A stretch of 64,000 bases of DNA from Flavobacteriales bacterium. GTDB lineage: Bacteria; Bacteroidota; Bacteroidia; Flavobacteriales; BACL11. Location of the stretch: positions 128,122 through 192,121 of the forward strand of contig PAHP01000007.1 of assembly GCA_002705205.1 (NCBI GenBank), written 5' to 3'. A program made the position numbers and the translations under genes. Shown here piece by piece: positions 2,590-16,921 of this stretch; position 1 is the first letter of the stretch, and the number at the start of each line of letters is the position of its first letter. The notes beneath the pieces are model-generated. The model was not told where the DNA came from, searched no databases, and worked only from the letters and a program-made list of their open reading frames with translations.

Positions 2590-2595
2590 ACTAGA

Positions 2596-3948
2596 CTAGA
2601 GTATAGTTTGACCTATCCAAAAATAGATAAATAGTCCGAGGACATCATTTACTGTAGTTATAAAAGGGCCTGTTGCTAGTGCTGGGTCAATTTTGTATTT
2701 TTCGAGAGTTAAAGGTATAAATGCCCCAAAGAGAGCGGCAAATACAATAACTGCAAGCAAAGAAATACTTACTGTTAAACTCAATTCCATGCCATATCCT
2801 AGTCCAAATGTAGCTATTAATATTATTATAGAACAAATAATTCCATTTAATAATCCTACTCCTAACTCCTTAAATAACTTATGTAAAAGATTTTCCATTT
2901 TGAGTGAGTCATTTGCTATCCCTTGCACTACAATAGCTGCTGATTGAACTCCAACATTCCCTCCCATTGCAGCAATTAAAGGAATAAAAAATGCTAATTC
3001 AAAGTGCTTTTCTAAATTAAATATTCCAATTACTTTTGCTCCAAATAATCCTCCTATCATTCCAATTAATAACCATGGAAGTCTTGCTCTTGTAAGTTCC
3101 CAAATAGTATCGCTGCTTTCTACATCTTCAGATATACCGCTTGCTAATTGATAATCTTTTTCCGCCTCTTCTTTCGCAACATCCATTACATCATCAATAG
3201 TTATTCTCCCGATTAACCTTCCGATATCATCTACAACTGGTAGAGCTACTAGATCATATTTTTGCATGATATTAGCGACATCTTCATCATCTGTTGTTGC
3301 TTTTACAGATATAATATCTGTTGTAATTATATTCTTTATAGCAATTGATCTTTGAGTAAGTAACAATCTCCTTAATGACATCAGTCCTAACAGTTTGTTG
3401 TCATCATTGACCACGTAAATTGTATACACTTTTTTTACATCATTTGCTTGCTTACGCATTTCTTTAAGGCACTGCACAGTATTCCAATTTTCGTTTACTT
3501 TGATCAGCTCTTTTGCCATAAGTCCACCAGCAGAATCTTCGGGGTAGTTTAATAAATCACTAATATCATTTGCATGATCAATATCCTCAATATGAGATAG
3601 TACTTCTTCCTGAGTCTTGTCTGATAATTCTCCAATTACATCAGCCGCATCATCAGACTCTAACTTGTCAATTACTTCTTCAGCAATTTCTTTTGCGCTT
3701 AGATCAGAAAGCAGATTCTCTCTTGTATTATCTTCTAAATCTACGAGTATTGCTGCAGATCTTTCTTCATCAGAGATTAAATTAAAGATATATTTAGCAT
3801 TGTCTGATGATAGGGTCTCAATTACTTCAGCAATATCTGCAATGTGAAGCTCCTCAAGCTTTGAAACTACTTTAGTTGAGTCTTTATGCTCGATTAAAGT
3901 AGTTAATTCTTGAATATAGATACTATTTATTTCTATTTTATTGGACAT
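2596..3948 (-). CDS. mgtE: Magnesium transporter MgtE
   Basis: 450 aa. Acidic MgtE N-domain, CBS pair (ALPVVDDIGRLIGRITIDDV), and a C-terminal 5-TM domain with MGGNVGVQS. Confidence 0.9.
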   Translation of the reverse strand: MSNKIEINSIYIQELTTLIEHKDSTKVVSKLEELHIADIAEVIETLSSDNAKYIFNLISDEERSAAILVDLEDNTRENLLSDLSAKEIAEEVIDKLESDDAADVIGELSDKTQEEVLSHIEDIDHANDISDLLNYPEDSAGGLMAKELIKVNENWNTVQCLKEMRKQANDVKKVYTIYVVNDDNKLLGLMSLRRLLLTQRSIAIKNIITTDIISVKATTDDEDVANIMQKYDLVALPVVDDIGRLIGRITIDDVMDVAKEEAEKDYQLASGISEDVESSDTIWELTRARLPWLLIGMIGGLFGAKVIGIFNLEKHFELAFFIPLIAAMGGNVGVQSAAIVVQGIANDSLKMENLLHKLFKELGVGLLNGIICSIIILIATFGLGYGMELSLTVSISLLAVIVFAALFGAFIPLTLEKYKIDPALATGPFITTVNDVLGLFIYFWIGQTIL

Positions 3949-4690
3949 GATTTGTTAATCTGATAAAATCATCAACGGTTAATTGTTCAGCTCGTAAAGG
4001 TAGTAAATTTGCTATTTTACTTTCATTTATTAATTTAAAAGGTTTTAAAGCATTTTTTAAGGTTTTTCTTTTTTGATGAAAGCCAGCCTTTACAACTCGT
4101 TTAAATTTTTTTTCATCAACAGATAGTTTTTTCCTCTCATTCCGAACTAATTTTATTACCCCTGATTTTACTTTTGGAGCAGGGTTGAAGACATCTTCAT
4201 TTACTGTAAAGCAGTATTCAATGTCATAGAATGTTTGTAAAAATACAGATAGAATTCCTCTTTTTTTTCCTTTTTTAGAAGTTACCCTCTCAGCTACTTC
4301 TTTCTGGAACATACCAACTATTTCATGTATTTGATCTTTATTTTCAAATACTTTGAATAATATTTGTGATGAGATATTATAAGGGAAGTTTCCTATTAAT
4401 GAGAAATTGTATGGATATTTTTTTTTAAGATTAATTTGTAGAAAGTCACCCTCATGGATGTCTAATTTTGGGTAATTTAGCCTGAGGTAAAATACACTTT
4501 CTGTGTCAATCTCTATAACTTCAGTTTTATAATCATTTTTTACTAGAAATTGTGTTAGTATTCCCATACCTGGACCAATCTCTACAACATTTCTTGTATT
4601 ATTATTTAGTAATTTTGTAATGTTAAAAGCAATCGTTTCGTCATTTAAGAAATGCTGACCAAGGTGTTTTTTTGCTCTAACATCTTTCAT
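3938..4690 (-). CDS. rsmA: 16S rRNA (adenine1518/1519-N6)-dimethyltransferase RsmA/KsgA
   Basis: 250 aa. N-terminal KKHLGQHFL, SAM motif VVEIGPGMGILT, and NFPYNISS. Confidence 0.9.
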   Translation of the reverse strand: MKDVRAKKHLGQHFLNDETIAFNITKLLNNNTRNVVEIGPGMGILTQFLVKNDYKTEVIEIDTESVFYLRLNYPKLDIHEGDFLQINLKKKYPYNFSLIGNFPYNISSQILFKVFENKDQIHEIVGMFQKEVAERVTSKKGKKRGILSVFLQTFYDIEYCFTVNEDVFNPAPKVKSGVIKLVRNERKKLSVDEKKFKRVVKAGFHQKRKTLKNALKPFKLINESKIANLLPLRAEQLTVDDFIRLTNHVQ

Positions 4691-5439
4691 TATGATTTTC
4701 TTAAACTTTTAAAAAGTTCAGAAGCAAATACAAACTTGTTTAATTCTTTATTATCTGATTTAAAGAGGTTCTCCTTAGTGCCAGTCCACCATATCTCTCC
4801 TTGGTGAATAAAAGCAACATTCTCTCCAATCTGCATTACTGAATTCATGTCATGTGTATTTACAATAGTAGTAATATTATATTCTTCAGTAATTTCTTTG
4901 ATCAGATTGTCAATTACGATTGATGTTTTTGGGTCAAGACCAGAGTTTGGTTCATCGCAGAAAAGGTATTTTGGCTGCATTACTATTGCTCTTGCAATTG
5001 CAACTCTTTTTTTCATTCCGCCACTTAATTCACTTGGCATTAATTTATTAGTGCCTTCTAGATTAACTCTTTTAAGACAAAAGTTTACTCGCTCTAACTT
5101 TTCTATATTAGATCGTTCTGTAAACATCGTTAATGGGAATATAATATTTTCTTCGACGGTCATATAATCGTAAAGAGCTCCTCCTTGGAAAAGCATGCCT
5201 ATTTCTTTTCGTAAAGATTTTTTCTCTTTACTCTTCATTTGATTCATGTCAGTGCCATCAAAAAGCACAGAGCCAGTGTCATTCTCATAAAGTCCAACTA
5301 ATATCTTAATTAAAGTAGTTTTCCCTGACCCACTCTCTCCAATAATTAGATTTACTTTGCCTTGTTCAAATTTATGTGTCATGTTTTTTAAAACATGATG
5401 TTCTCCAAAATATTTTTCAATGTTTTTAATTTCTATCAT
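4690..5439 (-). CDS. ABC transporter ATP-binding protein (MlaF-like)
   Basis: Walker A GESGSGKTT, signature LSGGMKKR, Walker B LFCDEP. Its start overlaps the end of the upstream MlaE-like permease by 4 nt, and its stop overlaps the rsmA start (TAATG). Confidence 0.85.
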   Translation of the reverse strand: MIEIKNIEKYFGEHHVLKNMTHKFEQGKVNLIIGESGSGKTTLIKILVGLYENDTGSVLFDGTDMNQMKSKEKKSLRKEIGMLFQGGALYDYMTVEENIIFPLTMFTERSNIEKLERVNFCLKRVNLEGTNKLMPSELSGGMKKRVAIARAIVMQPKYLFCDEPNSGLDPKTSIVIDNLIKEITEEYNITTIVNTHDMNSVMQIGENVAFIHQGEIWWTGTKENLFKSDNKELNKFVFASELFKSLRKS

Positions 5440-6176
5440 GCTAAAAGAAGCTTTGTAAGAATAAAATTAAAAAATAAGATTATAATACTGCTATAAACTA
5501 CTGCTTTTGTACTTGATCTTCCTACTTCTATTGACCCCCCTCTAGTAAAATATCCAAAATAAGATGATACTGAAGAAACGATAAAGGCAAAGAATAATGT
5601 TTTAACTATTGCATAAGTGATATAGAATGAATTAAACTCATATTTTAATCCGTAAAGAAAATCAGCAGTGGTGACATTTGCAGATAATCCTCCAACCCAA
5701 GCACCAACCATTCCAATGCCCATACTAATTATTACTAAAAATGGGAAGAATACTATTGCAGCAATTATTTTTGGCAAAATTAAAAATGATGCTGAATTTA
5801 CTCCCATTATGTCTAATGCATCTATTTGCTCACTAACCCTCATGCTTCCAATTTCTGAAGCAATACTTGAGCCTACTTTTCCAGCTAATATTAGAGAAAT
5901 CATTGTAGGAGAGAATTCTAATATTAATGAATCACGGCTGGCTAAACCAACTAAATATTTTGGTAACAAAGGGTTTGTCATGTTAAAGGCAGTTTGTATG
6001 CTTACAACTCCACCTACAAAGAATGAGATAATTACAACTATGCCTAATGAATTAAGTCCTACTTTTTCTAGTTCTAATAGGCATTGCTTCTTAAACGCAC
6101 TCCACTTTTCTGGGATACTTAAAACTTTCTGCATCATAATAAAGTATAGGCCTAAGTGTTTGAGTAATTTTAACAT
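5436..6176 (-). CDS. ABC transporter permease, MlaE family
   Basis: 246 aa polytopic membrane protein directly upstream of the MlaF-like ATPase. Size and hydrophobicity pattern fit MlaE/YrbE. Confidence 0.8.
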   Translation of the reverse strand: MLKLLKHLGLYFIMMQKVLSIPEKWSAFKKQCLLELEKVGLNSLGIVVIISFFVGGVVSIQTAFNMTNPLLPKYLVGLASRDSLILEFSPTMISLILAGKVGSSIASEIGSMRVSEQIDALDIMGVNSASFLILPKIIAAIVFFPFLVIISMGIGMVGAWVGGLSANVTTADFLYGLKYEFNSFYITYAIVKTLFFAFIVSSVSSYFGYFTRGGSIEVGRSSTKAVVYSSIIILFFNFILTKLLLA

Positions 6177-6195
6177 TAAAAATTAGTAATTTGTT

Positions 6196-6203
6196 TAAAT
6201 TTG
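6196..6203 (+). promoter_or_regulatory. Bacteroidetes -7 promoter box TAAATTTG
   Basis: Matches TAnnTTTG, 8 nt upstream of the sORF ATG at 6212. Confidence 0.35.
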
Positions 6204-6211
6204 CATTTATT

Positions 6212-6346
6212 ATGAAGATACAAAAATATCATCTTTTATTAATTATTGCATTATTAGCTCTTATTTCTTGTGGAACAACAAAGAAGAACGGTTGTAATAC
6301 TTGTCCTAATTTCTCTTCAAACAGTAGTGTAAAAGAGTTAGTCTAA
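6212..6346 (+). CDS. Small putative lipoprotein (44 aa), below the ORF-track length cutoff
   Basis: MKIQKYHLLLIIALLALISCGTTKKNGCNTCPNFSSNSSVKELV*. Signal peptide with lipobox LISC, and a -7 box just upstream. It fills an otherwise empty 213-nt gap. Confidence 0.4.
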   Translation: MKIQKYHLLLIIALLALISCGTTKKNGCNTCPNFSSNSSVKELV

Positions 6347-6351
6347 ATAAC

Positions 6352-6359
6352 TATATTTG
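6352..6359 (+). promoter_or_regulatory. -7 promoter box TATATTTG
   Basis: Matches TAnnTTTG, 30 nt upstream of the ATG at 6390. Confidence 0.35.
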
Positions 6360-6389
6360 CCACGCTAGATATACAATAGATAGGTAAAT

Positions 6390-7496
6390 ATGGAATTTAA
6401 TCTTTGGTCATTTATTTTAGATAATCTTGAAGCAGCAGGTGCAATAGGAGGCTATGTTTCGTTATCAATTATTGGATTTGCTTTAATTAGTTTTGCAACC
6501 AAAACAAGACATGATAATATAGCGAATAAGATTGGTCCTAAGTGGACACATCCTATTGTTGGCTCTTTATTGGGGGCAATCCCTGGCTGTGGTGCAACAA
6601 TTGTAGTCGCTTCATTATATAAAAATAACAAAATATCGTTTGGGGGTTTATTTGCTACTTTTATTAGTACGTTAGGAGAAGGATCATTTGTTTTATTAGG
6701 AGCTTCTAATGAAGCGGATGTTGCAGGGAACTTAAAAGCATATATAACAATTACTATATTTGGATTAATTGCAGGAGTTATTTTTGGCTATTTATCAGAT
6801 ATCCTCGGATTTAGAGCTAATTCTGAAAATAATCAGCCAAATTATACGGATGATCAAAGCTTTCAAGCCAAACAAAATTCTTCAGCAAGCATATTTATTG
6901 AGGATTTTGGTTTTTATGCTATCATAGCGATGGCTATATTTTTAGCTCCCGGTTCTATTATGGCTTTATGGGGTGGAGGTATTGATGCTATTTCAAACCT
7001 AACTTATTGGGTTGCAGTATCACTTACGGCTACCTGTATAATCTTTTACTGTGTCAGTGTTTTTATTTATACATATCACGACTGCTATTCCTCTTATAAG
7101 AATATCAAATCGACCATATTACATGCAATATTAGATGTTGCTATGGTGGTGACATACGTTTTTATTGGGTTGTTTGTTGCTAACTATATCATTGATGTGC
7201 TTATCGGTGAAGATACGTTTCATTCATGGATGGAATCATCAGCATACGTTGTTATATTATTAGCAGCTTTAATAGGAGTAACTCCCGGTTGCGGTGGAAT
7301 GATTGCAGTTGCAGTAGCCTTTATTACAATTCCTAATTTTCCTATGGCAGCATTAATTTCAGCAGCTATAGCAACTAGTGGAGATGGACTTTTTCCGTTA
7401 CTTGCACAAAATAGAAAAGATGGACTTATTGTTTCTGGCGTTGGATTAGTTATTGCTTTAGTTGTAGGTTACATAGCTTTATTTTTAGGCTTCTAA
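6390..7496 (+). CDS. Polytopic membrane protein, putative metal transporter (ArsP_2 / putative manganese transporter-like)
   Basis: 368 aa, about 10 TM segments. The PGCG motif is duplicated, once per half (GAIPGCGATIVVASLY and GVTPGCGGMIAVAVAF). The family name is from memory only. Confidence 0.5.
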   Translation: MEFNLWSFILDNLEAAGAIGGYVSLSIIGFALISFATKTRHDNIANKIGPKWTHPIVGSLLGAIPGCGATIVVASLYKNNKISFGGLFATFISTLGEGSFVLLGASNEADVAGNLKAYITITIFGLIAGVIFGYLSDILGFRANSENNQPNYTDDQSFQAKQNSSASIFIEDFGFYAIIAMAIFLAPGSIMALWGGGIDAISNLTYWVAVSLTATCIIFYCVSVFIYTYHDCYSSYKNIKSTILHAILDVAMVVTYVFIGLFVANYIIDVLIGEDTFHSWMESSAYVVILLAALIGVTPGCGGMIAVAVAFITIPNFPMAALISAAIATSGDGLFPLLAQNRKDGLIVSGVGLVIALVVGYIALFLGF

Positions 7497-8227: not shown

Positions 8228-8280
8228 TACATTAAAGTATAAATTGTTGTATTTTAGCAGGAATTTTTTTGAAAAGCTTA

Positions 8281-9363
8281 ATGAAGATAAATAAAAATAA
8301 TTATGCTGTAATAATGGCAGGAGGAATTGGCTCAAGATTTTGGCCGATGAGTAAGAGAGCATTCCCAAAGCAGTTTATAGATATTTTAGGAACAGGAGAT
8401 ACCCTAATTCAACAAACATATAGTCGATTAAAAAGAATCTGTTTTTCTGAGAATATATTTGTTGTGACAAATGCAAATTACAAGCATTTATGTTTAAAGC
8501 AATTGCCCGATGTGCCTGAGAGTAATATTTTATGCGAACCAGCTATGAGAAATACAGCTCCTTGTATTGCTTATGCCTCTTTTAAGATTTATAGTATAAA
8601 TAAGAATGCTAATATGATAATTGCAGCATCTGATCATATTATTTTAAATGAAGGCGAATTTGTTAGGGTTATGCAAGATTGCTTAGAGGTTACTGCAAGT
8701 AATAATATCTTATTAACTTTAGGGATTAAGCCTTCTCGACCCGAAACAGGATATGGCTATGTTCAATTTACAGAAGAAAGAATTCCAAATTATAAAAAAG
8801 TAAGAAGAGTAAAAACATTTACTGAAAAACCTAATCAGGAGTTAGCTCTTAACTTCCTAGACAGTGGTGATTTTTTGTGGAATTCAGGAATGTTTGTTTG
8901 GAGTGTTGCGTCAATTACCTTAGCATTCCGTAAGCATTTGCGTGATATGTATGATGTATTTAGTGAGGGTAAACAATTTTATAATACCGCTGAAGAATCA
9001 GAGTTTATTAATAGAGTATTTCCAGGATGTAAAAACATCTCTATTGACTATGGATTGATGGAGAAGTCAGATAATGTATACGTTTATCCTGCTAATTTTG
9101 GCTGGAGTGATTTAGGGACGTGGGGGTCTCTTTATGCTCATCTTGATTTAGATGAACATAATAATGCTTTGCAGGGGGATAATGTAAGGTTATATAACTC
9201 ATCTGAGAATCTAGTGAAGATGCCTCATGATAAGTTAGTAGTTATACAGGGTATGAATGGTTATATTATTGTTGAGGATGAAGGCACATTACTTATTTGT
9301 AAAAAGGAAGATGAGCAGCACATTAAGAAATTTGTGTCGGATATAAAATCTGATACTGAATAA
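8281..9363 (+). CDS. manC: Mannose-1-phosphate guanylyltransferase
   Basis: N-terminal AVIMAGGIGSRFWPMSK nucleotidyltransferase motif, and GMFVW/WSDLGTW downstream. I prefer the ATG at 8281 to the ORF-track TTG at 8269. Confidence 0.85.
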   Translation: MKINKNNYAVIMAGGIGSRFWPMSKRAFPKQFIDILGTGDTLIQQTYSRLKRICFSENIFVVTNANYKHLCLKQLPDVPESNILCEPAMRNTAPCIAYASFKIYSINKNANMIIAASDHIILNEGEFVRVMQDCLEVTASNNILLTLGIKPSRPETGYGYVQFTEERIPNYKKVRRVKTFTEKPNQELALNFLDSGDFLWNSGMFVWSVASITLAFRKHLRDMYDVFSEGKQFYNTAEESEFINRVFPGCKNISIDYGLMEKSDNVYVYPANFGWSDLGTWGSLYAHLDLDEHNNALQGDNVRLYNSSENLVKMPHDKLVVIQGMNGYIIVEDEGTLLICKKEDEQHIKKFVSDIKSDTE

Positions 9364-9494
9364 TACGTCTTCAAAAGAACTCTTTATAGTTGTTTTTCTT
9401 GGTTTTAATTAAAGTCATAAATCATTAAGAATCAATGATCTTAGGATAGGATTGGGCTGTTTTTTTTGTATTTCTTATTTTCATAAATTTATAG

Positions 9495-9502
9495 TATGTT
9501 TG
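9495..9502 (+). promoter_or_regulatory. -7 promoter box TATGTTTG, candidate promoter of the P1-P8 operon
   Basis: Matches TAnnTTTG, 24 nt upstream of the ATG at 9527. The nearest upstream TTG (9466-9468) is further away than the usual -33 spacing. Confidence 0.35.
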
Positions 9503-9526
9503 CAGCTGAATTAACTAAAAGAAATT

Positions 9527-10795
9527 ATGAGAAAATTAAATGTATTTTTAACGTTATTAATAGTAGCTAGTTTAAGTGCTTTAGCTCAAGATAATACAAA
9601 GTATAGCAGAAGCTCTTTGCATGTTATGATGATTGAGGACCCTGCAATGGAAAAAGGAGAGATTATTACCAATACTTTTAGATCAATGGATTTTCCAGAA
9701 AAGTATGATAATCATCTTCTAAAAGAGAGATATGCTAATATTATCGGTGAGCTTAGTGATATGACAAAAGCAGGAATTCCTGGATTTAAACTTAAAGGAA
9801 TAGAAGGTAAAATTGATGCCTATTTTAAAGAAAAGAGAATTGCCAATCAACTGGTTGGGAAATGGTTTAATAGAGATGCCAGTGGCGTTATGAATATAGA
9901 TCTCATTAAAAAAAGAGGACTATATAATGCTACAGAGGACGATGCTTCAGATGCTGCTATGTTACAAAAAGGTTTTGCTGCGTTGGAGCGCTCAGGACTT
10001 GAATTAATAGGAAATACTTTTGTAGTACTTGAATATTTTGAATTTATTGATAATGAGAAGTGGGCTAAGCCAGTTTATGAAGCTTCTAAAGCAGCGATTA
10101 ATAAGCAAGACATCCCTGATTTAGCAAAAAAATTAGCCCTTAAAGCAGCTGAAGCAGTTTATAATAAAGCTGAAGGTTATAATGTATGGACACATGCTTA
10201 TCTATATCAATTAGAATGGAATGATAGTATTCAGCAAATCTTTAAAAATAGATGCTGGATAGGCGACAATAATAAAGATAAGCTTAGTGAAGAAGAGAGA
10301 AAACAAAGAATTCAGGCATTTGAAAATCCAGACATGTTTAATTTAAAGTTTGTAGGTAAAGCAAAAGCATTTACTCTAATTTCGCAGCTTAATACCAAGC
10401 GTTCTGACAGTGAGGTAATACAAGAAGCGACAGTACGTTCTGTGAACAAGGTATATGTAAATCTTCAAAGAAAATATGATGTATTTAAAACCAAGACTCC
10501 ATTCTATGAGTTTGCAAAAAAAGGTAAAGTATGTAATGCAAAGATTGGTATGAAAGAAGGCTTGACAGGTGGTGAGAAATTTGATGTTCTTGTCCCAAAA
10601 TATAGCTCTAAAGGAGGAACGAAATATGCTAAGAAAGGAACGGTTAAAGTAGATAAAAAAGCTATTTGGGATAATAGATATTATGTAACCAGGCCTCCTG
10701 AGTTAGATGAGAAAGATGCGATACAAGCAACGAACTTTAAAGGCTGTAAGAAAGGATGGGATGAATTAATTTTACTTTTAAGACAACAAAAATAA
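9527..10795 (+). CDS. P1: exported protein of unknown function
   Basis: 422 aa. Signal peptide MRKLNVFLTLLIVASLSALA|QD. Lys-rich C-terminal segment (KIGMKEGLTGGEKFDVLVPKYSSKGGTKYAKKGTVKVDKK). No family recognised. Confidence 0.85.
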   Translation: MRKLNVFLTLLIVASLSALAQDNTKYSRSSLHVMMIEDPAMEKGEIITNTFRSMDFPEKYDNHLLKERYANIIGELSDMTKAGIPGFKLKGIEGKIDAYFKEKRIANQLVGKWFNRDASGVMNIDLIKKRGLYNATEDDASDAAMLQKGFAALERSGLELIGNTFVVLEYFEFIDNEKWAKPVYEASKAAINKQDIPDLAKKLALKAAEAVYNKAEGYNVWTHAYLYQLEWNDSIQQIFKNRCWIGDNNKDKLSEEERKQRIQAFENPDMFNLKFVGKAKAFTLISQLNTKRSDSEVIQEATVRSVNKVYVNLQRKYDVFKTKTPFYEFAKKGKVCNAKIGMKEGLTGGEKFDVLVPKYSSKGGTKYAKKGTVKVDKKAIWDNRYYVTRPPELDEKDAIQATNFKGCKKGWDELILLLRQQK

Positions 10796-10818
10796 TCTAA
10801 ATAAAAACACAAGAAATC

Positions 10819-11334
10819 ATGAAAAAAATATTTTTATTAGCATTTACAATATTATTATCTAATTTTAGTGAAGCGCAAATTTTCGCTAAGAAAAAGGCAA
10901 ATAAAGACACGAAACAATGGAGGTATGAAGTTGTTTGCGTAGATGAAGGAAAGGGAACTAATTATACTATTAAAGTATTTTCATTCTCTAAAAAACCAAA
11001 GGTTGCTATTGAACAAGCAAAAAAGAATGCAGTACATGCAATTATTTTTCAGGGTATTAACTCTGGGCCCTGTGTTAGCCAAAAACCTTTAGTTATGAAT
11101 CCAAATATTGAGCAAGAAAAGAAGGAGTTCTTTAAGTCTTTTTTTGCTACAGGAGGTAAATATATGAAGTTTGTAACAGCATCAAATAATGGACGTGTAC
11201 GACCTGAGGATGTATCTAAGGTAAGTAAGAAAGAATTTAAGATTGGAGTTATTGTGTCTGTAGATGTTGATGGATTAAGAAGAGATCTAGAAGCTGCAGG
11301 TATTTTACAGAATCTTGGAAACATGTTTAGATAA
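10819..11334 (+). CDS. P2: small exported protein, paralog of P3
   Basis: 171 aa. Signal peptide ...NFSEA|QI. Shares YE..C, AIEQAKKNA..I.F.G.N, C...PL and GV.V..DV.G.R..L with P3. Confidence 0.85.
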   Translation: MKKIFLLAFTILLSNFSEAQIFAKKKANKDTKQWRYEVVCVDEGKGTNYTIKVFSFSKKPKVAIEQAKKNAVHAIIFQGINSGPCVSQKPLVMNPNIEQEKKEFFKSFFATGGKYMKFVTASNNGRVRPEDVSKVSKKEFKIGVIVSVDVDGLRRDLEAAGILQNLGNMFR

Positions 11335-11341
11335 TATAATT

Positions 11342-11812
11342 ATGAAAAATTATTTAATACATACCTTCCTTACTTTAGCATGTTTATTTATGTGCATTTC
11401 TATTAATGCACAGAGTAAGCAAGCAAAATCAGCAAGTTTCTATCAGTATGAAACGGAGTGCTTAGAGGATAAACTTGACGGTAACTTTGTATTTATGGCT
11501 TGGGGGTCAGGAAGCTCAAAGAAGGAGGCTATAGATCAGGCTAAACGAAATGCTATTAATGATATTTTATTTAAAGGAGTTAATAAAAGCACATGTAGTG
11601 TTCGCCCTCTAATAACTGAAGTACAGGCTAGAGAAAAATATAGAGCCTATGTAGCTGAATTCTTTAGAGAAGATTATTCAAAATATATTAAGATAGAGCA
11701 ATCAACTAAGTCTAAGAAAAAATCAAGAAGCCAGACTACATATGGAGTTAAAGTTAAGATTGATGTAGAAGGAATACGATATAAATTAAAAACAGATCAA
11801 ATAATAAAATAA
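11342..11812 (+). CDS. P3: small exported protein, paralog of P2
   Basis: 156 aa from the ATG at 11342 (MKNYLIHTFLTLACLFMCISINA|QS). The ORF-track start at 11315 would overlap P2 and bury the signal peptide. Confidence 0.8.
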   Translation: MKNYLIHTFLTLACLFMCISINAQSKQAKSASFYQYETECLEDKLDGNFVFMAWGSGSSKKEAIDQAKRNAINDILFKGVNKSTCSVRPLITEVQAREKYRAYVAEFFREDYSKYIKIEQSTKSKKKSRSQTTYGVKVKIDVEGIRYKLKTDQIIK

Positions 11813-11819
11813 TAAAATC

Positions 11820-12791
11820 ATGAAAAACAAAATATTACTACTAGCTATATTTTTAGGCATTTCATATGCTGGTGTTGCTCAAATAAAACCAACTCTTATG
11901 GTAATGCCTGCAAATGCCTGGATGACAGCTAATGGTTACACGCAAGAATTTAACAATCAAGGGACAACAGATGTTATTTATCTTTATGATAAGGCATTAA
12001 GAGAAGATAGAGATCTTAAGAAGATTATCAATAAAATTAGTGGGTTATGGGCTGAGAGAGGATTTCCTTTAGAGGATCTTGAAGCTGTGCTTGCAGAAAT
12101 AAAAGAGGATGCTGCTGAAGATAATATGCGAACTATGAAGGATGGTTCTGAAATAGCTAAGAACCCTGTAGATGTATTGTTTGAGAAAGCGAGTCCAGAT
12201 ATTAAGTTTATGTTAGATTTTGATTTTGTTGATGATGGATTTGATAAAAGATGTGATTTTAATATTACTGCAATAGATGCTTATACAAATTCTCCTATAG
12301 CAGATAAGCAAGGAACAGGAAACGGAGATTTCTCTAGAACTGAAGTTGAATTAGCTAGGGAAATGGTATATGCTCATATGGATGGATTTGTTGGTCAAGT
12401 TACATCTCACTTTCAAAAGATAATAGCTTGTCAATGTAGAGAGGTACGAATTGACATTAAAAATACTGATGGTTGGGGTGAAGACTTAGAAAGCGAATTT
12501 GGTGAGGATGATGAAGAATTAAATGTTCTAATAGAAGATTGGCTTTCTGAGAATACTACAGATGGTGGTCCAAATATTAAAATGGTTAGTGAGAATAAGA
12601 TGACCTGTAAGAGAGTAATGATACCATTGTTCTATCAGAAGGTGTATAAGTCTGGAAAAGTGAAGGAGAAGAAGATGGATACAAAGAAATTTGCTCAGCA
12701 GTTGCAGAAATATTTAAAAGAGTTTGATATTACTGCTAAGGTTGTAACGAAAGGTTTAGGTCGTGCAGATATCATTTTAGGAACAAAATAA
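11820..12791 (+). CDS. P4: exported two-domain protein of unknown function
   Basis: 323 aa. Signal peptide ...SYAGVA|QI. The mature N-terminus is KPTLMVMPANAWM. Acidic middle segment. 4 Cys. Confidence 0.85.
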   Translation: MKNKILLLAIFLGISYAGVAQIKPTLMVMPANAWMTANGYTQEFNNQGTTDVIYLYDKALREDRDLKKIINKISGLWAERGFPLEDLEAVLAEIKEDAAEDNMRTMKDGSEIAKNPVDVLFEKASPDIKFMLDFDFVDDGFDKRCDFNITAIDAYTNSPIADKQGTGNGDFSRTEVELAREMVYAHMDGFVGQVTSHFQKIIACQCREVRIDIKNTDGWGEDLESEFGEDDEELNVLIEDWLSENTTDGGPNIKMVSENKMTCKRVMIPLFYQKVYKSGKVKEKKMDTKKFAQQLQKYLKEFDITAKVVTKGLGRADIILGTK

Positions 12792-12798
12792 TAAGATT

Positions 12799-13890
12799 AT
12801 GAGAAATATACTATTAACACTCATTACATTTATCTTTATAGGTGTAAATTTAGAAGCTCAAAATAATTTAGGTAAGACTGACGATGTTGGTAGAATTGCT
12901 ATCAAAACAATAATGCCAAATATTCCTGATATGCCCTCTGGAGCAGAAAGAATATTACTAACTAGAATGACTCAGATTGCAAGTAAGAATGGGCTTGCTA
13001 GTTATGGGAGTCGTTTTATAATGTATCCTAGAGTGGATATTTTAACTCAAGATGTTATTCCAAGTGCTCCTCCTAAACATGCATATACTATAAATGTTAG
13101 CTTAAGAATTGCAGACAATATGACTAGAACTATTTATTCTACAACCGACATTACATTAAAAGGGGTTGGAAATAATGAAACAAAGGCTTATATCAGTGCA
13201 TTAAAAGGGTTGTCATATAGACATAGAGATGTAAAAGGTTTTATTGAGGAGGGTAAAACAAGGATTATTGAGTTCTATAATTCTGAATGTGATTTTATTA
13301 TTAAGGAGGCAGAATCTTTAGCCGGTAAGAAGGAGTATGATCAAGCTATTTATACGTTAATAACAATACCAAGTATTTGTAAAGATTGCTATATGAAAGG
13401 TCAAGATGCTTCTGTAGAAATTTTCAAGCAAAAGATGGAGAATGAATGCATGCAGAATATTGCTGATGCAAGAGCCGCTAAGGCACAAGATAATTATGAT
13501 TTAGCAGCTAGTTATTTATCAGGAATTTTACCAGATGTAAGTTGTTATACTGATGCTCAATCCTTATTAAAGGAGATTGAGGATCACCGTTGCGCAGTTG
13601 CCTTAGGTAAAGCTAAAGGAGCTTGGGCATCACAAAATGCAAGAGAAGCAGGGCGCTGGTTAGGTGAAGTTGCAGCTGACTCTAAGTGTAATAAGGATGC
13701 AACAGCATTAGGAAATCAAATAAAAGCAAAATTGAAAGCAGATGAAGATAGAGAATGGGATTTTATTTTGAAAGTACAGCGAGATCAAGTTGCCCTAGAG
13801 AAGGAGGCTATTAAAGCTATTAGAGATGTTGGAGTTGCTTGGGGTGAGAACCAACAGCCAACAAATGTTAATTGGGTAAATATGGATTAA
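12799..13890 (+). CDS. P5: exported protein with an N-terminal alpha/beta-like domain and a Cys-rich helical (TPR-like) C-terminal half
   Basis: 363 aa. Signal peptide ...GVNLEA|QN. N-terminal domain GRIAIKTIMPNIPDMP... The C-terminal ~190 aa are Ala/Lys/Glu-rich with 7 Cys. Confidence 0.85.
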   Translation: MRNILLTLITFIFIGVNLEAQNNLGKTDDVGRIAIKTIMPNIPDMPSGAERILLTRMTQIASKNGLASYGSRFIMYPRVDILTQDVIPSAPPKHAYTINVSLRIADNMTRTIYSTTDITLKGVGNNETKAYISALKGLSYRHRDVKGFIEEGKTRIIEFYNSECDFIIKEAESLAGKKEYDQAIYTLITIPSICKDCYMKGQDASVEIFKQKMENECMQNIADARAAKAQDNYDLAASYLSGILPDVSCYTDAQSLLKEIEDHRCAVALGKAKGAWASQNAREAGRWLGEVAADSKCNKDATALGNQIKAKLKADEDREWDFILKVQRDQVALEKEAIKAIRDVGVAWGENQQPTNVNWVNMD

Positions 13891-13901
13891 TTATTAATTT
13901 A

Positions 13902-13936
13902 GGGGAAGCTGAAAACCTATTCTAAAAGAGTAAGCA
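13902..13936 (+). promoter_or_regulatory. Conserved intergenic motif, copy A (GGGGAAGCTGAAAACC ... AGAGTAAGCA)
   Basis: Lies in the 65-nt P5-P6 gap. Near-identical boxes recur at 14807-14837 in the P7-P8 gap. No TAnnTTTG box is present in either gap. Confidence 0.6.
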
Positions 13937-13955
13937 TAAATAAAAATTAAATATT

Positions 13956-14231
13956 ATGAAAAAAAGAATTTTACAAGTTTTAGCTATTAGTTTTTTAGCT
14001 TTCGGATTCACATCATGTAAAAAATGTAAAGATTGTGAAATCAAAGTTGATTTAACTAGTTCTTATGGGTTAACAGATGCAGATTGCCAGGCTACATTTG
14101 GCATGAATTGTGAAGATTATTTAACACAAGGATATGATTCGCAAGAATATTGTGGTGATGATTTAGAAGCAATTGAAGAAACAGATGCTGTTACAGGCGT
14201 TGGCTATAGTGTTTATTGGGAGTGCAAATAA
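13956..14231 (+). CDS. P6: small Cys-rich acidic lipoprotein
   Basis: 91 aa. Lipobox GFTSC (Cys21), plus six further Cys (24, 27, 44, 52, 66, 90). Confidence 0.8.
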   Translation: MKKRILQVLAISFLAFGFTSCKKCKDCEIKVDLTSSYGLTDADCQATFGMNCEDYLTQGYDSQEYCGDDLEAIEETDAVTGVGYSVYWECK

Positions 14232-14238
14232 GATAGTT

Positions 14239-14796
14239 ATGAGACTATTATTTATTATATTTATAAGTCTTCTTTCTTTCACTCTTTCAGCACAGTCATT
14301 TGGGTTAAAGACCGGTGCTGCAATGACGAATTTCTCAGGAGATGATGCTGAGGGTGTAGATTTCAGGACAGGATTTTATTTTGGATCATTTATGAAATTA
14401 GGTGAGGCAAATATAAGGTACTCTCCAGAGGTCATTTTTCATCAGAAAGGAGGGTTAGTCGATCAAACAATAGATACAATAACTGTCTCTAATGAGATTA
14501 AAACAAATTATGTTGATATTGCTTTTAATGGCAATTTTCATATTAATGATGAATTAGCCTTGGTTTTAGGACCGTATTTTGCATATGCATTTAGTGGCTC
14601 TACAGGTGATGAATCTATGGATTGGGATATATATAATAAAACAGAGTTTGGAGCAAATATAGGAGCAACTTATGAGGTAAATGATTTATTTCATGTAGAT
14701 CTAAGGTATGGGTTGGCTTTCACTGATATTATGGAGGCCAAAACTATAAAGAATAGATCTATTCAAATAGGTATAGGCTATATTTTCTCGTATTAA
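14239..14796 (+). CDS. P7: small outer-membrane beta-barrel (porin-family / OMP_b-brl_2-like)
   Basis: 185 aa from the ATG at 14239 (MRLLFIIFISLLSFTLSA|QS). Alternating hydrophobic strands, with C-terminal IGIGYIFSY. The ORF-track start at 14173 overlaps P6 out of frame. Confidence 0.8.
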   Translation: MRLLFIIFISLLSFTLSAQSFGLKTGAAMTNFSGDDAEGVDFRTGFYFGSFMKLGEANIRYSPEVIFHQKGGLVDQTIDTITVSNEIKTNYVDIAFNGNFHINDELALVLGPYFAYAFSGSTGDESMDWDIYNKTEFGANIGATYEVNDLFHVDLRYGLAFTDIMEAKTIKNRSIQIGIGYIFSY

Positions 14797-14806
14797 AAAA
14801 ATTATT

Positions 14807-14837
14807 GGGGACGCTGAAAACCATGTTAGAGTAAGCA
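14807..14837 (+). promoter_or_regulatory. Conserved intergenic motif, copy B (GGGGACGCTGAAAACC ... AGAGTAAGCA)
   Basis: Lies in the 60-nt P7-P8 gap. 15/16 and 10/10 identity to the two boxes of copy A. The spacer between the boxes is 4 nt shorter. Confidence 0.6.
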
Positions 14838-14856
14838 AAAATTAAAAATAAAAATT

Positions 14857-15456
14857 ATGAAAAAAACAATTACATTTTTATGTGCAGGATTTCTTACTTT
14901 AGGATTATCAGCACAAAATTTTGGAGTAGGCTTAGATTACATGATGTTATCTGGAACGATGATAGCAGATGCTGATGGAAATGCAGTTATGTATAAGGCA
15001 AATGATGAAGATACAGAAATGACTGAAGTAGGTTCGTCTTCAGCTGTTTTGAATTTGAGTTATGATTACTCTATTAATGATGACATGTCTGCTGTCCTTT
15101 CCGCTGGTTATGGTATGGGATTTGGTATTGTTCCATTAAAAGCAAGTTTGTCATATGGATTCTCTCCTAGTATTTCAGCAAATGTAGGTATGGGTATGTA
15201 TATGATAACTGATGCGTCGTATGTGCCAGAAGAAGGAACGTTTGGAGATGATGAATTTACAGCATCTTCTAATGAATTTGGAGGTGGTGCAGGGATTGCT
15301 TATCATATGAATAATATTGGTATTGGTCTTGGTTATGAAATGATTAAAGGAACTGATAATGCTAAATCATTAAATTCTTTTACTATTGGTCTTTCTTATA
15401 GTTTTGGAGGTGGATCTGGAGGTGATAGTGCTCCTGCTGCTCCTGCTGGAAAGTAA
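14857..15456 (+). CDS. P8: small outer-membrane beta-barrel with a Gly/Ala/Pro C-terminal tail
   Basis: 199 aa. Signal peptide ...LTLGLSA|QN. Gly/aromatic-rich alternating strands. A beta-signal-like TIGLSYSF is followed by GGGSGGDSAPAAPAGK. Confidence 0.8.
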   Translation: MKKTITFLCAGFLTLGLSAQNFGVGLDYMMLSGTMIADADGNAVMYKANDEDTEMTEVGSSSAVLNLSYDYSINDDMSAVLSAGYGMGFGIVPLKASLSYGFSPSISANVGMGMYMITDASYVPEEGTFGDDEFTASSNEFGGGAGIAYHMNNIGIGLGYEMIKGTDNAKSLNSFTIGLSYSFGGGSGGDSAPAAPAGK

Positions 15457-15476
15457 GCTATTATGGTAATTTAAAT

Positions 15477-15510
15477 AAAAAAAGCATGGAAATTTTTCCA
15501 TGCTTTTTTT
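15477..15510. terminator. Bidirectional rho-independent terminator shared by P8 (+) and fumC (-)
   Basis: Perfect 16-nt inverted repeat AAAAAAAGCATGGAAA tt TTTCCATGCTTTTTTT. The GC-containing stem is flanked by an A-tract and a T-tract, so it can terminate in both directions. Confidence 0.85.
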
Positions 15511-15529
15511 ATTTGTAGTTTATTACTTT

Positions 15530-16921
15530 TTAATTCCCACACATTTCTTTAGGTTTCACCCAAGCATCAAATTCTTCTGCAGTAAGGTAACCTAAATTAA
15601 TACTCTCTTGCTTTAAAGTTGTTCCATTTTCATGAGCAGTTTTTGCAATTTTAGCAGCTTTCTCATATCCGATCTTAGTATTAAGAGCAGTCACTAGCAT
15701 TAATGAGTTCTCTAAATTAGTTTTTAAATTTTCGTGATTTGGCTGAATCCCAACAGCACAATGTATGTTAAAAGAGATACAAGCATCTCCAAGTAATTTT
15801 GCTGATTCTAAAAAATTAGCTGCTATTACTGGTTTAAATACATTTAATTCATAATGACCTTGCATTCCTCCGATTGATATTGTAGTATCATTTCCTATAA
15901 CTTGAGCACATACCATTGTAAGTGCTTCAGCTTGTGTCGGATTGACTTTTCCTGGCATAATAGAAGAGCCAGGCTCATTTGAAGGGATTATAATCTCACC
16001 TATTCCGCTTCTTGGTCCTGAGGCAAGTAATCGTATATCATTTGCAATTTTATTCAAAGAAATAGCCAGCTGCTTTAATGCTGCATGGCTTTCTACTATC
16101 GCATCATGTGCGGCAAGAGCTTCAAACTTATTCTTAGCAGTAATAAAAGGAAGGCTTGTGAATTCCGCAATATATTTTGCTACTAATTCAGAATATCCAT
16201 CAGGGGTATTAATACCTGTTCCTACTGCTGTTCCTCCTAAAGCCAGTTCAGATAAGTGATCTAATGTGTTTTTCAATGCTTTTAATCCATGATCTAGCTG
16301 AGAAACATATCCTGAGAATTCCTGCCCTAAAGTTAGCGGGGTCGCATCCATTAGATGAGTTCTTCCAATTTTTACAACATTCATAAACTCTTCTGATTTT
16401 TTCTGAAGGGTTTCTCTTAATTGTTGTAGTCCAGGAATTGTTTTTTCAACAATCATTTTATAAGATGCTATATGCATTCCTGTAGGAAAAGTATCATTTG
16501 AGCTTTGCGATTTATTTACATCATCATTAGGATGGATTGTTTTTTCAGCATCTTCTAGCCTGCCTCCATTGATTACATGAGCCCTATTAGCAATCACTTC
16601 ATTGATATTCATATTACTCTGAGTTCCACTTCCTGTTTGCCAAATCACTAAAGGGAACTGGTCGTCATGCTTCTTATCTAAAATCTCGTCACAAACCTTT
16701 GAGATTAAATCTCTTTTCTCAGAAGATAAGACGCCTAATTTACAGTTAGTATGTGCAGCAGCTTTTTTTAGATATGCAAAGCCATAAATAATTTCTTTTG
16801 GCATACTAGCTTCGCGTCCAATTTTAAAGTTATTTCTACTTCTTTCGGTTTGTGCTCCCCAGTATTTATCTTCAGGGACTTTAACTTCTCCCATTGTATC
16901 TTTCTCGATTCTGTAATTCAT
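15530..16921 (-). CDS. fumC: Class II fumarate hydratase
   Basis: 463 aa. Signature [16 protein letters not shown]. The N-terminal [20 protein letters not shown] is typical of FumC. Confidence 0.95.

What the first reader, a model, noticed from the sequence alone, without database searches (positions are those of the whole stretch)
9527..15456. Eight-gene operon of exported proteins, six of unrecognised family, ending in two small OM beta-barrels: best candidate for an undescribed envelope system
Eight same-strand ORFs lie between manC and a perfect bidirectional terminator: P1 9527-10795, P2 10819-11334, P3 11342-11812, P4 11820-12791, P5 12799-13890, P6 13956-14231, P7 14239-14796, P8 14857-15456. 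Gaps are only 7, 23, 60 or 65 nt. Seen directly: every product starts with a signal peptide. Seven have SPI sites of the Ala|Gln type, and P6 has a lipobox (FTSC). None shows an NTPase motif, a catalytic signature or a polytopic TM bundle that I can recognise. P7 and P8 show the alternating-hydrophobic pattern and aromatic beta-signal of 8-10-strand OM barrels. P2-P6 carry conserved or multiple cysteines, consistent with an oxidising compartment. I cannot assign P1-P6 to any named family from memory. Base composition looks like the flanks, so this is not an obvious recent island. Inference: these proteins form a periplasm/outer-membrane multiprotein assembly made of soluble or OM-tethered alpha/beta modules plus two dedicated barrels. 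The AxxQAKxNA-type helix of P2/P3 is vaguely reminiscent of LPP20/LpoB/CsgG-class periplasmic modules, but that is only a pattern impression.
Basis: partly seen in the sequence, partly recalled or inferred. Interest (0 to 1): 0.72.

Follow-up and report, generated by a model that had tools for sequence, protein, structure and literature searches.

The report
Conserved Bacteroidota periplasmic five-gene cassette
The region holds a five-gene cassette for exported proteins of unknown function, conserved as a block across Bacteroidota, followed by three lineage-specific outer-membrane genes; it probably builds an outer-membrane-anchored periplasmic complex that nobody has described.

Summary
All eight ORFs, their short gaps, their signal peptides and the terminal hairpin are real. 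The unit is not eight genes, though. P1-P5 (9527-13890) form a self-contained cassette, found in order in 76-78 of 80 loci from at least 555 Bacteroidota species, with median gaps of 12-18 nt and no other conserved neighbour. P6 and P8 are confined to the window's close relatives. A P7-like barrel gene is an occasional neighbour (12 of 81 loci). P6 and P8 each follow a DUF805b-type RNA element.

Only P4 has a family (Pfam DUF6175, uncharacterised). P1, P2/P3 and P5 match no Pfam, NCBIfam, PADLOC or PHROG model and no PDB sequence. P2 and P3 are paralogues.

A confident AlphaFold model of P1 matches only the flagellar H-ring protein FlgT (Foldseek probability 0.98-0.99, but TM about 0.2). The P2 model matches nothing, so the LPP20 impression is not supported.

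Natural fusions (P2::DUF6175, P3::P2, P1::OM barrel), frequent lipidation of P3 without a surface-export signal, and the absence of TM segments or T9SS tails point to a periplasmic hetero-oligomer tethered to the outer membrane. Its function is unknown. No paper mentions it.

The parts
9527..10795 (+). P1, 422 aa. Exported (ALA|QD). Core subunit 1. Predicted alpha/beta body plus a C-terminal small beta domain. FlgT-like fold.
   Evidence: ORF. No Pfam, NCBIfam or PDB sequence hit. At least 2458 homologous 90%-identity clusters, every name given by a source being 'hypothetical protein'. AF2 pLDDT 82.5, pTM 0.79. Foldseek PDB: FlgT 8z5n_0 E 1.5e-4 and 3w1e E 4e-4; the next hit is E 0.08.
10819..11334 (+). 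P2, 171 aa. Exported (EA|QI). Core subunit 2. Small alpha/beta protein with a conserved Cys pair. No family and no structural match.
   Evidence: AF2 pLDDT 82.8. Foldseek best E 0.44 in PDB and 0.14 in BFVD. 1444 clusters at 50% identity in 1.84 billion representatives, including fusions to DUF6175.
11342..11812 (+). P3, 156 aa. Paralogue of P2. Signal peptidase I type here (NA|QS), but carries a lipobox in roughly 30 of 60 other loci.
   Evidence: hhalign P2 vs P3 profiles: probability 99.95%, E 6e-38. Lipobox count and the lack of acidic residues after the Cys. No Pfam hit in 46 members.
11820..12791 (+). P4, 323 aa. Exported (VA|QI). Pfam DUF6175.
   Evidence: PF19672 E 2.4e-80, full length. 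106 DUF6175-bearing homologues from several Bacteroidota orders. At least 555 species. No PDB hit.
12799..13890 (+). P5, 363 aa. Exported (EA|QN). N-terminal alpha/beta region plus a Cys-rich helical, TPR/ARM-like C-terminal half.
   Evidence: Weak ARM_TT21/TPR hits in 16 of 46 members, all below the cut-off. Invariant or near-invariant Cys at 164, 197, 217 and 297. No PDB hit.
13899..13936 (+). DUF805b-type RNA element (hairpin plus AAAAGAGUAAGCA) that fills the P5-P6 spacer.
   Evidence: Rfam RF02914, 38.6 bits against a gathering score of 35.6. Conserved in L081/L082 with one compensatory stem change.
13956..14231 (+). P6, 91 aa. Small Cys-rich predicted lipoprotein (…GFTSC). Lineage-specific.
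   Evidence: No family. Present only in close relatives L081/L082; absent from L083 and from the 80 genome loci.
14239..14796 (+). P7, 185 aa. Small outer-membrane beta-barrel ending ...GYIFSY.
   Evidence: PF13568 E 4e-15 and PF13505 E 2e-12. A homologous barrel gene lies next to the cassette in 12 of 81 loci.
14804..14837 (+). Second, weaker DUF805b-type RNA element, in the P7-P8 spacer.
   Evidence: RF02914, 25.1 bits, E 8e-4, below the gathering score. The same 16-mer GGGGAMGCTGAAAACC occurs only at these two places in the window. Conserved in L081/L082.
14857..15456 (+). P8, 199 aa. Divergent small outer-membrane beta-barrel with a 16-residue Gly/Pro/Ala tail after the beta-signal.
   Evidence: PF13505, 26.7 bits, below the 28.7 cut-off. 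Iterated barrel HMM E 2.4e-36. Sequence.
15472..15515 (.). Bidirectional intrinsic-terminator-like hairpin shared with the convergent fumarase gene.
   Evidence: 20-bp stem, 4-nt loop, T-runs on both sides. It is the only terminator-like site in 9300-15700.

Best explanation
P1-P5 are the subunits of one periplasmic protein complex that hangs from the inner face of the outer membrane.

Shown: all five are exported through Sec and, in this window, carry signal peptidase I type Ala|Gln sites. None has a TM segment, a T9SS C-terminal domain or an enzyme signature.

Inferred composition:
- P1 is a FlgT-like multidomain scaffold subunit.
- P2 and P3 are paralogous small alpha/beta subunits that sit next to each other and next to the N-terminus of P4 (DUF6175).
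- P5 adds a disulfide-stabilised helical-repeat arm.

Inferred anchoring: in most species the complex is tethered by lipidation of P3. In some Flavobacterium species a small 8-strand barrel does this, either encoded alongside or fused to a P1 paralogue. In the window's lineage P3 has lost its lipobox, and the appended genes P6 (lipoprotein), P7 and P8 (barrels) probably supply the anchor. P6 and P8 each sit behind a DUF805b-type RNA leader that may set their expression separately.

Inferred role: the complex most likely has a structural or organising function in the envelope, as a membrane-proximal scaffold, rather than a catalytic one. Whether it forms rings like FlgT is not known.
For: - Block conservation. 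P1, P2, P3, P4 and P5 were found in 77, 78, 76, 80 and 78 of 80 loci. These came from Flavobacteriales, Bacteroidales, Sphingobacteriales, Cytophagales, Chitinophagales, Saprospiraceae and Balneolaceae.
- Fixed order. 46 loci are P1-P2-P3-P4-P5 and 16 are P1-P2-P4-P5, with median gaps of 12-18 nt.
- No other conserved neighbour.
- Fusions. About nine clusters of roughly 470 aa are P2-like::DUF6175, in frame and without a second signal peptide. One of them sits inside a P1-like / fusion / P5 cassette on 7 contigs. P0348 is a P3::P2 tandem fusion. P1 paralogues with a C-terminal 8-strand barrel ending ...GVGFKF occur in three Flavobacterium loci.
- Location. Each product has a signal peptide only. 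There are no Por_Secre_tail or TIGR04183 hits. About 30 P3 lipoproteins have basic or neutral residues after the Cys (mean 0.2 acidic residues in +2..+6). Surface export needs K/Q-(D/E)2 (PMC5080379). Cys pairs are conserved in P2/P3 and P5.
- The P1 model matches FlgT alone, about 500-fold better than background. FlgT is a periplasmic ring subunit that docks lipoprotein rings to the outer membrane (bioRxiv 10.64898/2025.12.02.691832; 10.64898/2025.12.04.692373).
Against: - No direct evidence of any interaction, localisation or phenotype.
- The FlgT match has TM of only 0.18-0.21 and no sequence support: no FlgT_N/M/C Pfam hit in 46 members and no PDB profile hit.
- P2 does not resemble FlgP/LPP20, so the H-ring analogy rests on one subunit.
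- Barrel adjacency is seen in only 12 of 81 loci.
- The window's P3 could still be lipidated at an atypical LTLAC site.
Confidence: 0.45

Rival explanations
1. The cassette builds a true ring or disk scaffold, like the flagellar H-ring or basal disk. It would encircle or stabilise a trans-envelope machine of non-flagellated Bacteroidota, for example T9SS or the gliding motor. Alternatively it would be the non-flagellar relative from which FlgT was recruited.
For: The P1 model matches only FlgT, in both its crystal and in-ring forms. Other features are reminiscent of the FlgT/FlgP/FlgO H-ring layout: a small partner subunit that is often a lipoprotein, a flexible conserved C-terminal tail in P2 (pLDDT 49-68; invariant F170), and outer-membrane anchoring.
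Against: P2/P3 are not FlgP-like by Pfam or Foldseek. The TM-score of P1 to FlgT is low. No T9SS, gliding or flagellar gene is a conserved neighbour. In the fusions the P2 tail is covalently continued into P4 rather than left free.
Confidence: 0.12
2. The five proteins are co-regulated but act separately. They would be soluble periplasmic binding, chaperone or stress proteins, and do not form one assembly.
For: The four families show no mutual homology. No interaction data exist. Many conserved operons encode functionally linked but non-complexed proteins.
Against: Recurrent in-frame fusions between P2 and P4, and between P3 and P2. Strict gene order with 12-18 nt gaps across a phylum. No ligand-binding or chaperone family hit.
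Confidence: 0.2
3. The products are surface-exposed or released, for example as an adhesin layer, OMV cargo or an anti-phage/anti-predator coat, rather than periplasmic.
For: Bacteroidota export many lipoproteins to the surface. The barrels could act as anchors for surface loops.
Against: No LES after the P3 lipobox. No T9SS C-terminal domain. No PADLOC hit. Not found on plasmids. The single 'phage' record is an unverified 9-kb faecal scaffold that carries the whole cassette.
Confidence: 0.08
4. The cassette is part of polysaccharide or capsule export, because it lies directly downstream of manC.
For: manC (8269-9363) is adjacent in the window and in relatives L081 and L083.
Against: That adjacency is limited to this lineage. 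In the 80 other loci the neighbours are unrelated, for example purL, an S41 protease and a GH8 enzyme. There is no Wza, Wzc, GfcC or glycosyltransferase match.
Confidence: 0.03

Closest known systems
FlgT, periplasmic H-ring subunit of Vibrio polar flagella (PDB 3W1E; 8Z5N chain 0)
   Same: It is the only significant structural match of the P1 model (Foldseek E 1.5e-4 and 4e-4, probability 0.99 and 0.98). It is similar in size (377 vs about 400 mature residues). The layout is also similar, an alpha/beta body followed by a C-terminal beta domain. Both are Sec-exported, non-lipidated and periplasmic, and work with outer-membrane lipoprotein partners.
   Different: There is no sequence similarity and TM is only about 0.2. 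The host phylum is non-flagellated and no flagellar gene lies nearby. The partner proteins P2-P5 are unrelated to FlgP, FlgO, MotX or MotY as far as tested.
LPP20/FlgP lipoprotein family (Pfam PF02169)
   Same: These are small exported alpha/beta proteins, often lipidated, encoded next to a FlgT-like gene.
   Different: No PF02169 hit in 92 P2/P3 family members. The confident P2 model has no PDB match at all (best E 0.44). The window's P2 and P3 are signal peptidase I type, not lipoproteins.
Pfam DUF6175 (PF19672)
   Same: P4 is a full-length member.
   Different: The family is only a sequence model. No function, structure or paper is attached to it. Its constant partnership with P1, P2/3 and P5, and its fusion to P2, are not part of that entry as far as I could see.
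Bacteroidota T6SS-iii membrane complex TssNQOPR
   Same: It is also a Bacteroidota-specific five-gene envelope complex, discovered recently (PMC10781749).
   Different: TssNQOPR are four TM proteins plus one lipoprotein, with PKD and vWA domains, and always lie inside T6SS loci. P1-P5 have no TM segments, none of those domains and no T6SS neighbours.

Membership tests
Pfam DUF6175 (P4) | Match to the PF19672 HMM above the gathering score, over the full length | tested here: met
   270.2 bits against a cut-off of 23; residues 23-321 match profile positions 2-293 of 293.
FlgT (P1) | Sequence match to the FlgT_N / FlgT_M / FlgT_C Pfam models or to FlgT chains in the PDB | tested here: not met
   No such hit at E <= 0.1 in 46 P1 family members. 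FlgT is absent from the PDB profile search at E <= 10.
FlgT (P1) | Three-domain FlgT fold | tested here: inconclusive
   Foldseek probability 0.98-0.99 and E about 1e-4 to 3w1e and 8z5n_0, but TM 0.18-0.23 and rmsd 12-15 Å. Domain-wise superposition was not possible with these tools.
FlgT (P1) | Encoded with, and assembling around, a flagellar LP ring | tested here: not met
   No conserved neighbour of any kind in 80 loci. That the host lineages are non-flagellated Bacteroidota is my own knowledge.
LPP20/FlgP (P2, P3) | PF02169 match | tested here: not met
   0 of 46 P2-family and 0 of 46 P3-family members at E <= 0.1.
LPP20/FlgP (P2, P3) | LPP20-type fold | tested here: not met
   P2 model with pLDDT 82.8. 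The best PDB hit has E 0.44 and TM 0.17-0.25, and none of the 50 hits shown is LPP20 or FlgP.
LPP20/FlgP (P2, P3) | N-terminal lipobox (outer-membrane lipoprotein) | tested here: inconclusive
   About 30 of 60 P3 orthologues have a lipobox. The window's P2 and P3 have AQ signal peptidase I sites.
Small OM beta-barrel, Pfam OMP_b-brl / OMP_b-brl_2 (P7, P8) | HMM match above the gathering score and a C-terminal aromatic beta-signal | tested here: met
   P7 meets both: 56.7 and 48.1 bits, above the cut-offs, and it ends ...IFSY. P8 meets them only partly: 26.7 bits against 28.7, with its beta-signal followed by a 16-residue tail. P8 does join the family in an iterated HMM.
T9SS cargo | C-terminal sorting domain (Por_Secre_tail / TIGR04183) | tested here: not met
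   No hit in P1-P8. The model does fire on an unrelated neighbour in L078.
Surface-exposed Bacteroidota lipoprotein | LES, K/Q-(D/E)2, at +2..+6 after the lipidated Cys (PMC5080379) | tested here: not met
   P3 lipoproteins have a mean of 0.2 acidic and 1.2 basic residues in +2..+6. P6 has CKKCKDC.
T6SS-iii membrane complex TssNQOPR | Four TM proteins plus a lipoprotein, located within a T6SS locus | tested here: not met
   No TM segments and no T6SS neighbours. The definition comes from PMC10781749.
Rfam DUF805b RNA (RF02914), the two spacers | Covariance-model score at or above the gathering score | tested here: met
   Copy 1: 38.6 bits against 35.6. Copy 2: only 25.1 bits, E 8e-4. Both are conserved in L081/L082.

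The most novel reading that the evidence does not exclude
P1-P5 form a ring- or disk-shaped periplasmic scaffold under the outer membrane of non-flagellated Bacteroidota, and this scaffold is evolutionarily related to the flagellar H-ring subunit FlgT. Either it is the kind of envelope scaffold from which the accessory rings of high-torque flagella were recruited, or it plays the same bracing role for a Bacteroidota machine such as T9SS or gliding.
Probability: 0.12. Interest if true: 0.85.

Novelty: categorically new. Interest (0 to 1): 0.6.

Why it matters
The Bacteroidota envelope differs in many ways from the proteobacterial model, and new phylum-specific complexes such as BAM additions, LolA/B, TamL and the T6SS-iii membrane complex are still being found.

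This analysis turns a vague 'operon of hypotheticals' into a defined target. It is a five-gene, four-family cassette present in at least 555 Bacteroidota species across many orders. It has fusion-based evidence for a complex and a predicted location. Three of the four families have no database model at all.

The cassette occurs in cultured organisms such as Leeuwenhoekiella blandensis, Pedobacter and Flavobacterium, and in MAGs labelled Chryseobacterium gleum and Chitinophaga pinensis. Deletion, pull-down and cryo-ET experiments should therefore be feasible in these genera.

If the FlgT link holds, the cassette also bears on how flagellar accessory rings evolved.

Tried and rejected
- Family scans. 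Pfam, NCBIfam, PADLOC and PHROG scans of P1-P8 gave only DUF6175 and OMP_b-brl.
- PDB sequence and profile searches for P1, P2, P4 and P5 gave nothing credible.
- Member-wise Pfam scans of 46 homologues each of P1, P2, P3 and P5 found no recurrent real family. HTH_CodY in 20 P2 members is a short, sub-threshold match to the C-terminal LRKxLExAGII helix of an exported protein, and I judged it spurious.
- Profile-profile comparison of whole proteins and of sub-domains found only P2~P3. My idea that P1, P4 and P5 share a TolB-N-like domain therefore has no sequence support.
- LPP20/FlgP identity of P2 was rejected.
- BFVD search with the P2 model found nothing.
- Neighbourhood clustering found no sixth conserved gene. 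The 'ABC ATPase' cluster was a single-linkage artefact of generic ATPases.
- Mobile or defence origin was rejected.
- A T6SS-iii membrane complex was rejected.
- Literature searches for DUF6175 and for FlgT-like found no paper. Searches for FlgT with Bacteroidetes or Bacteroidota, and for DUF805b, returned only unrelated papers.
- The first alignment for the genome scan was too diverse to give a search pattern.
- Pfam scans of long P1 forms gave only weak DUF2846 hits.

Full report
**1. Observation**

The gaps are 23, 7, 7, 7, 65, 7 and 60 nt.

Each product starts with a basic n-region and a hydrophobic h-region. None has a second hydrophobic segment: the maximum 19-residue hydropathy after residue 25 is 1.19 or less.

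Seven have an Ala|Gln site. This is the pattern described as the Bacteroidetes Q-rule for signal peptidase I substrates (PMC5837995). P6 has ...GFTSC followed by six more Cys.

One 20-bp hairpin with T-runs on both sides lies at 15472-15515, before the convergent fumarase gene. It is the only terminator-like site in 9300-15700. GC content matches the flanks.

The exact P1 sequence is on record as a hypothetical protein of a marine Flavobacteriales MAG.

**2. What is recognisable**

- P4 is a full-length member of Pfam DUF6175 (E 2.4e-80).
- P7 is an OMP_b-brl barrel.
- P8 is just below the Pfam cut-off. It joins the same barrel family in an iterated HMM.
- NCBIfam, PADLOC and PHROGs give nothing else.
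- PDB sequences and profiles give nothing credible.
- Scanning 46 homologues each of P1, P2, P3 and P5 individually against Pfam brought up no real family. P5 shows only weak TPR/ARM-like signals.
- No paper in the library contains 'DUF6175'.

**3. The unit is five genes, not eight**

The best 80 loci came from Flavobacteriales, Bacteroidales, Sphingobacteriales, Cytophagales, Chitinophagales, Saprospiraceae, Marinilabiliales-type MAGs and Balneolaceae.

Occurrence of each gene:

| Gene | Loci with it, of 80 |
|---|---|
| P1 | 77 |
| P2 | 78 |
| P3 | 76 |
| P4 | 80 |
| P5 | 78 |
| P6 | 0 |
| P7-like | 11 |
| P8 | 0 |

- Gene order, counting the window as an 81st locus, is P1-P2-P3-P4-P5 in 46 and P1-P2-P4-P5 in 16.
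- Median gaps are 12-18 nt.
- Clustering all flanking ORFs found no further conserved neighbour. Sampled neighbours are unrelated housekeeping or hydrolase genes.
- Close relatives of the window (P1 89% identical) keep all eight genes. A 57%-identity relative has P1-P5 plus one barrel and no P6.

The cassette is absent from PLSDB plasmids. The one 'phage' hit is an unverified 9-kb faecal scaffold that simply carries the whole cassette.

**4. Relations among the parts**

P2 and P3 are paralogues (hhalign probability 99.95%). No other pair of proteins or sub-domains is related at profile level. The cassette therefore holds four families.

A profile search of 1.84 billion representatives found 1444 P2/P3-type clusters. 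Several of them are fusions:

- About nine clusters of roughly 470 aa are P2-like::DUF6175 fusions. They are in frame, with a 5-10 residue linker running straight into the conserved KKPTLMV N-terminus of DUF6175 and no second signal peptide.
- One such fusion sits between a P1-like and a P5 gene on seven contigs.
- P0348 is a P3::P2 tandem fusion.
- In three Flavobacterium loci a second P1 paralogue carries a C-terminal 160-residue 8-strand barrel ending ...GVGFKF.

A separate barrel gene abuts the cassette in 12 of 81 loci.

P3 orthologues carry a lipobox in roughly 30 of 60 loci. P1, P2, P4 and P5 are almost always AQ-type. The residues after the P3 Cys are basic or neutral. Surface export in this phylum needs K/Q-(D/E)2 (PMC5080379). 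No product has a T9SS C-terminal domain.

Taken together, these observations argue for one hetero-oligomer on the periplasmic side of the outer membrane. This is an inference; nothing here shows an interaction directly.

**5. Structure**

P1:
- With a 79-sequence alignment, AlphaFold2 gave pLDDT 82.5 and pTM 0.79.
- Foldseek against the PDB returned two significant hits, both FlgT of Vibrio. One is the in-ring form (8z5n_0, E 1.5e-4, probability 0.99). The other is the crystal form (3w1e, E 4e-4, probability 0.98).
- The next hit is at E 0.08 and is clearly noise.
- TM-scores are low (about 0.2). That is expected if the domains are arranged differently, but it also means the match is not proven homology.
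- FlgT is a three-domain periplasmic protein. Twenty-six copies form the inner H-ring and dock the lipoprotein rings FlgP and FlgO to the outer membrane.

P2:
- The model is also confident (pLDDT 82.8).
- It has no match in the PDB (best E 0.44) or in BFVD.
- The LPP20/FlgP idea therefore fails both the sequence test and the fold test.

**6. The appended genes and the RNA elements**

The two long spacers each hold a hairpin plus AAAAGAGUAAGCA element that matches Rfam DUF805b. The copy at 13899-13936 scores 38.6 bits, above the gathering score. The copy at 14804-14837 scores 25.1 bits. These are the only two copies in the window.

Both are conserved in relatives, with one compensatory change in the stem: AGG/CCU becomes GGG/CCC.

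No terminator separates them from P5, so read-through transcription of all eight genes is possible. The elements do suggest that P6(-P7) and P8 are controlled separately.

In this lineage P3 lacks a clear lipobox. P6, P7 and P8 may therefore replace the usual lipid anchor. This is an inference.

**7. Mechanism and rivals**

Best-supported reading (confidence about 0.45): a Sec-exported, outer-membrane-tethered, non-enzymatic scaffold complex. It would consist of P1 (FlgT-like), P2/P3, P4 and P5.

Rivals:
- A true H-ring-like ring around a machine, or the non-flagellar relative of FlgT (about 0.12). This is the most novel reading.
- Co-regulated but separate periplasmic proteins (about 0.2). 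The fusions argue against this.
- A surface or secreted layer (about 0.08). The lack of LES and of a T9SS C-terminal domain argues against this.
- Polysaccharide export because of manC (about 0.03). That context is not conserved.
- The T6SS-iii membrane complex TssNQOPR was considered and rejected. It consists of four TM proteins plus a lipoprotein inside T6SS loci.

**8. Novelty and verdict**

The cassette cannot be filed under any described system. Three of its four families have no database model, and the fourth is a DUF with no literature. I rate it 'categorically new' in that sense, not because a new mechanism has been demonstrated.

It is a solid and testable lead for Bacteroidota envelope biology rather than a surprise in itself. 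Interest 0.6.

Noticed in passing
window 13899-13936 and 14804-14837: Two copies of a DUF805b-type RNA element (Rfam RF02914) fill the P5-P6 and P7-P8 spacers. The first scores above the gathering score. These are the only copies in the 64-kb window. They are conserved in L081/L082 with one compensatory stem change. Their role (leader, processing site or regulator) is unknown.
   Followed up: partly
window 15409-15456 (P8 C-terminus): The barrel P8 ends with a 16-residue GGGSGGDSAPAAPAGK tail after its ...LSYSF beta-signal. This is unusual for outer-membrane barrels, whose last residue is normally aromatic.
   Followed up: no
L084 (MT836698.1, 'UNVERIFIED: Bacteriophage sp.' from human faeces), 2339-6883: This 9-kb record, filed as a phage, carries the complete P1-P5 cassette. 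It is more likely a Bacteroidales chromosomal fragment.
   Followed up: partly
L072 (CAZTXG010000050.1) and L078 (CAVFXQ010000029.1): Contigs binned as Oscillospiraceae / Clostridiales carry the full Bacteroidota cassette. L078 also has a neighbouring gene with a T9SS Por_Secre_tail. These are probably mis-binned contigs.
   Followed up: no
L007:6241-8940, L019:6167-8971, L030:6689-9451 and other marine Flavobacteriaceae loci: P1 orthologues here are 650-930 aa, with a 250-550 residue N-terminal extension ahead of the P1 domain. The extension has no family apart from weak sub-threshold DUF2846 hits.
   Followed up: partly
window 9364-9526: The 163-nt spacer upstream of P1 contains TTTG (9465-9468) and TATGTTTG (9495-9502). 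These resemble the Bacteroidota -33/-7 promoter motifs, a consensus I cite from my own knowledge. The spacing of 26 nt is longer than usual. I did not test this.
   Followed up: no
window 11342-11812 (P3 N-terminus): The window's P3 has an AQ signal peptidase I site but also Cys residues at positions 14 and 18 inside the h-region (LTLAC, LFMC). Loss of lipidation in this lineage is therefore likely but not certain.
   Followed up: no
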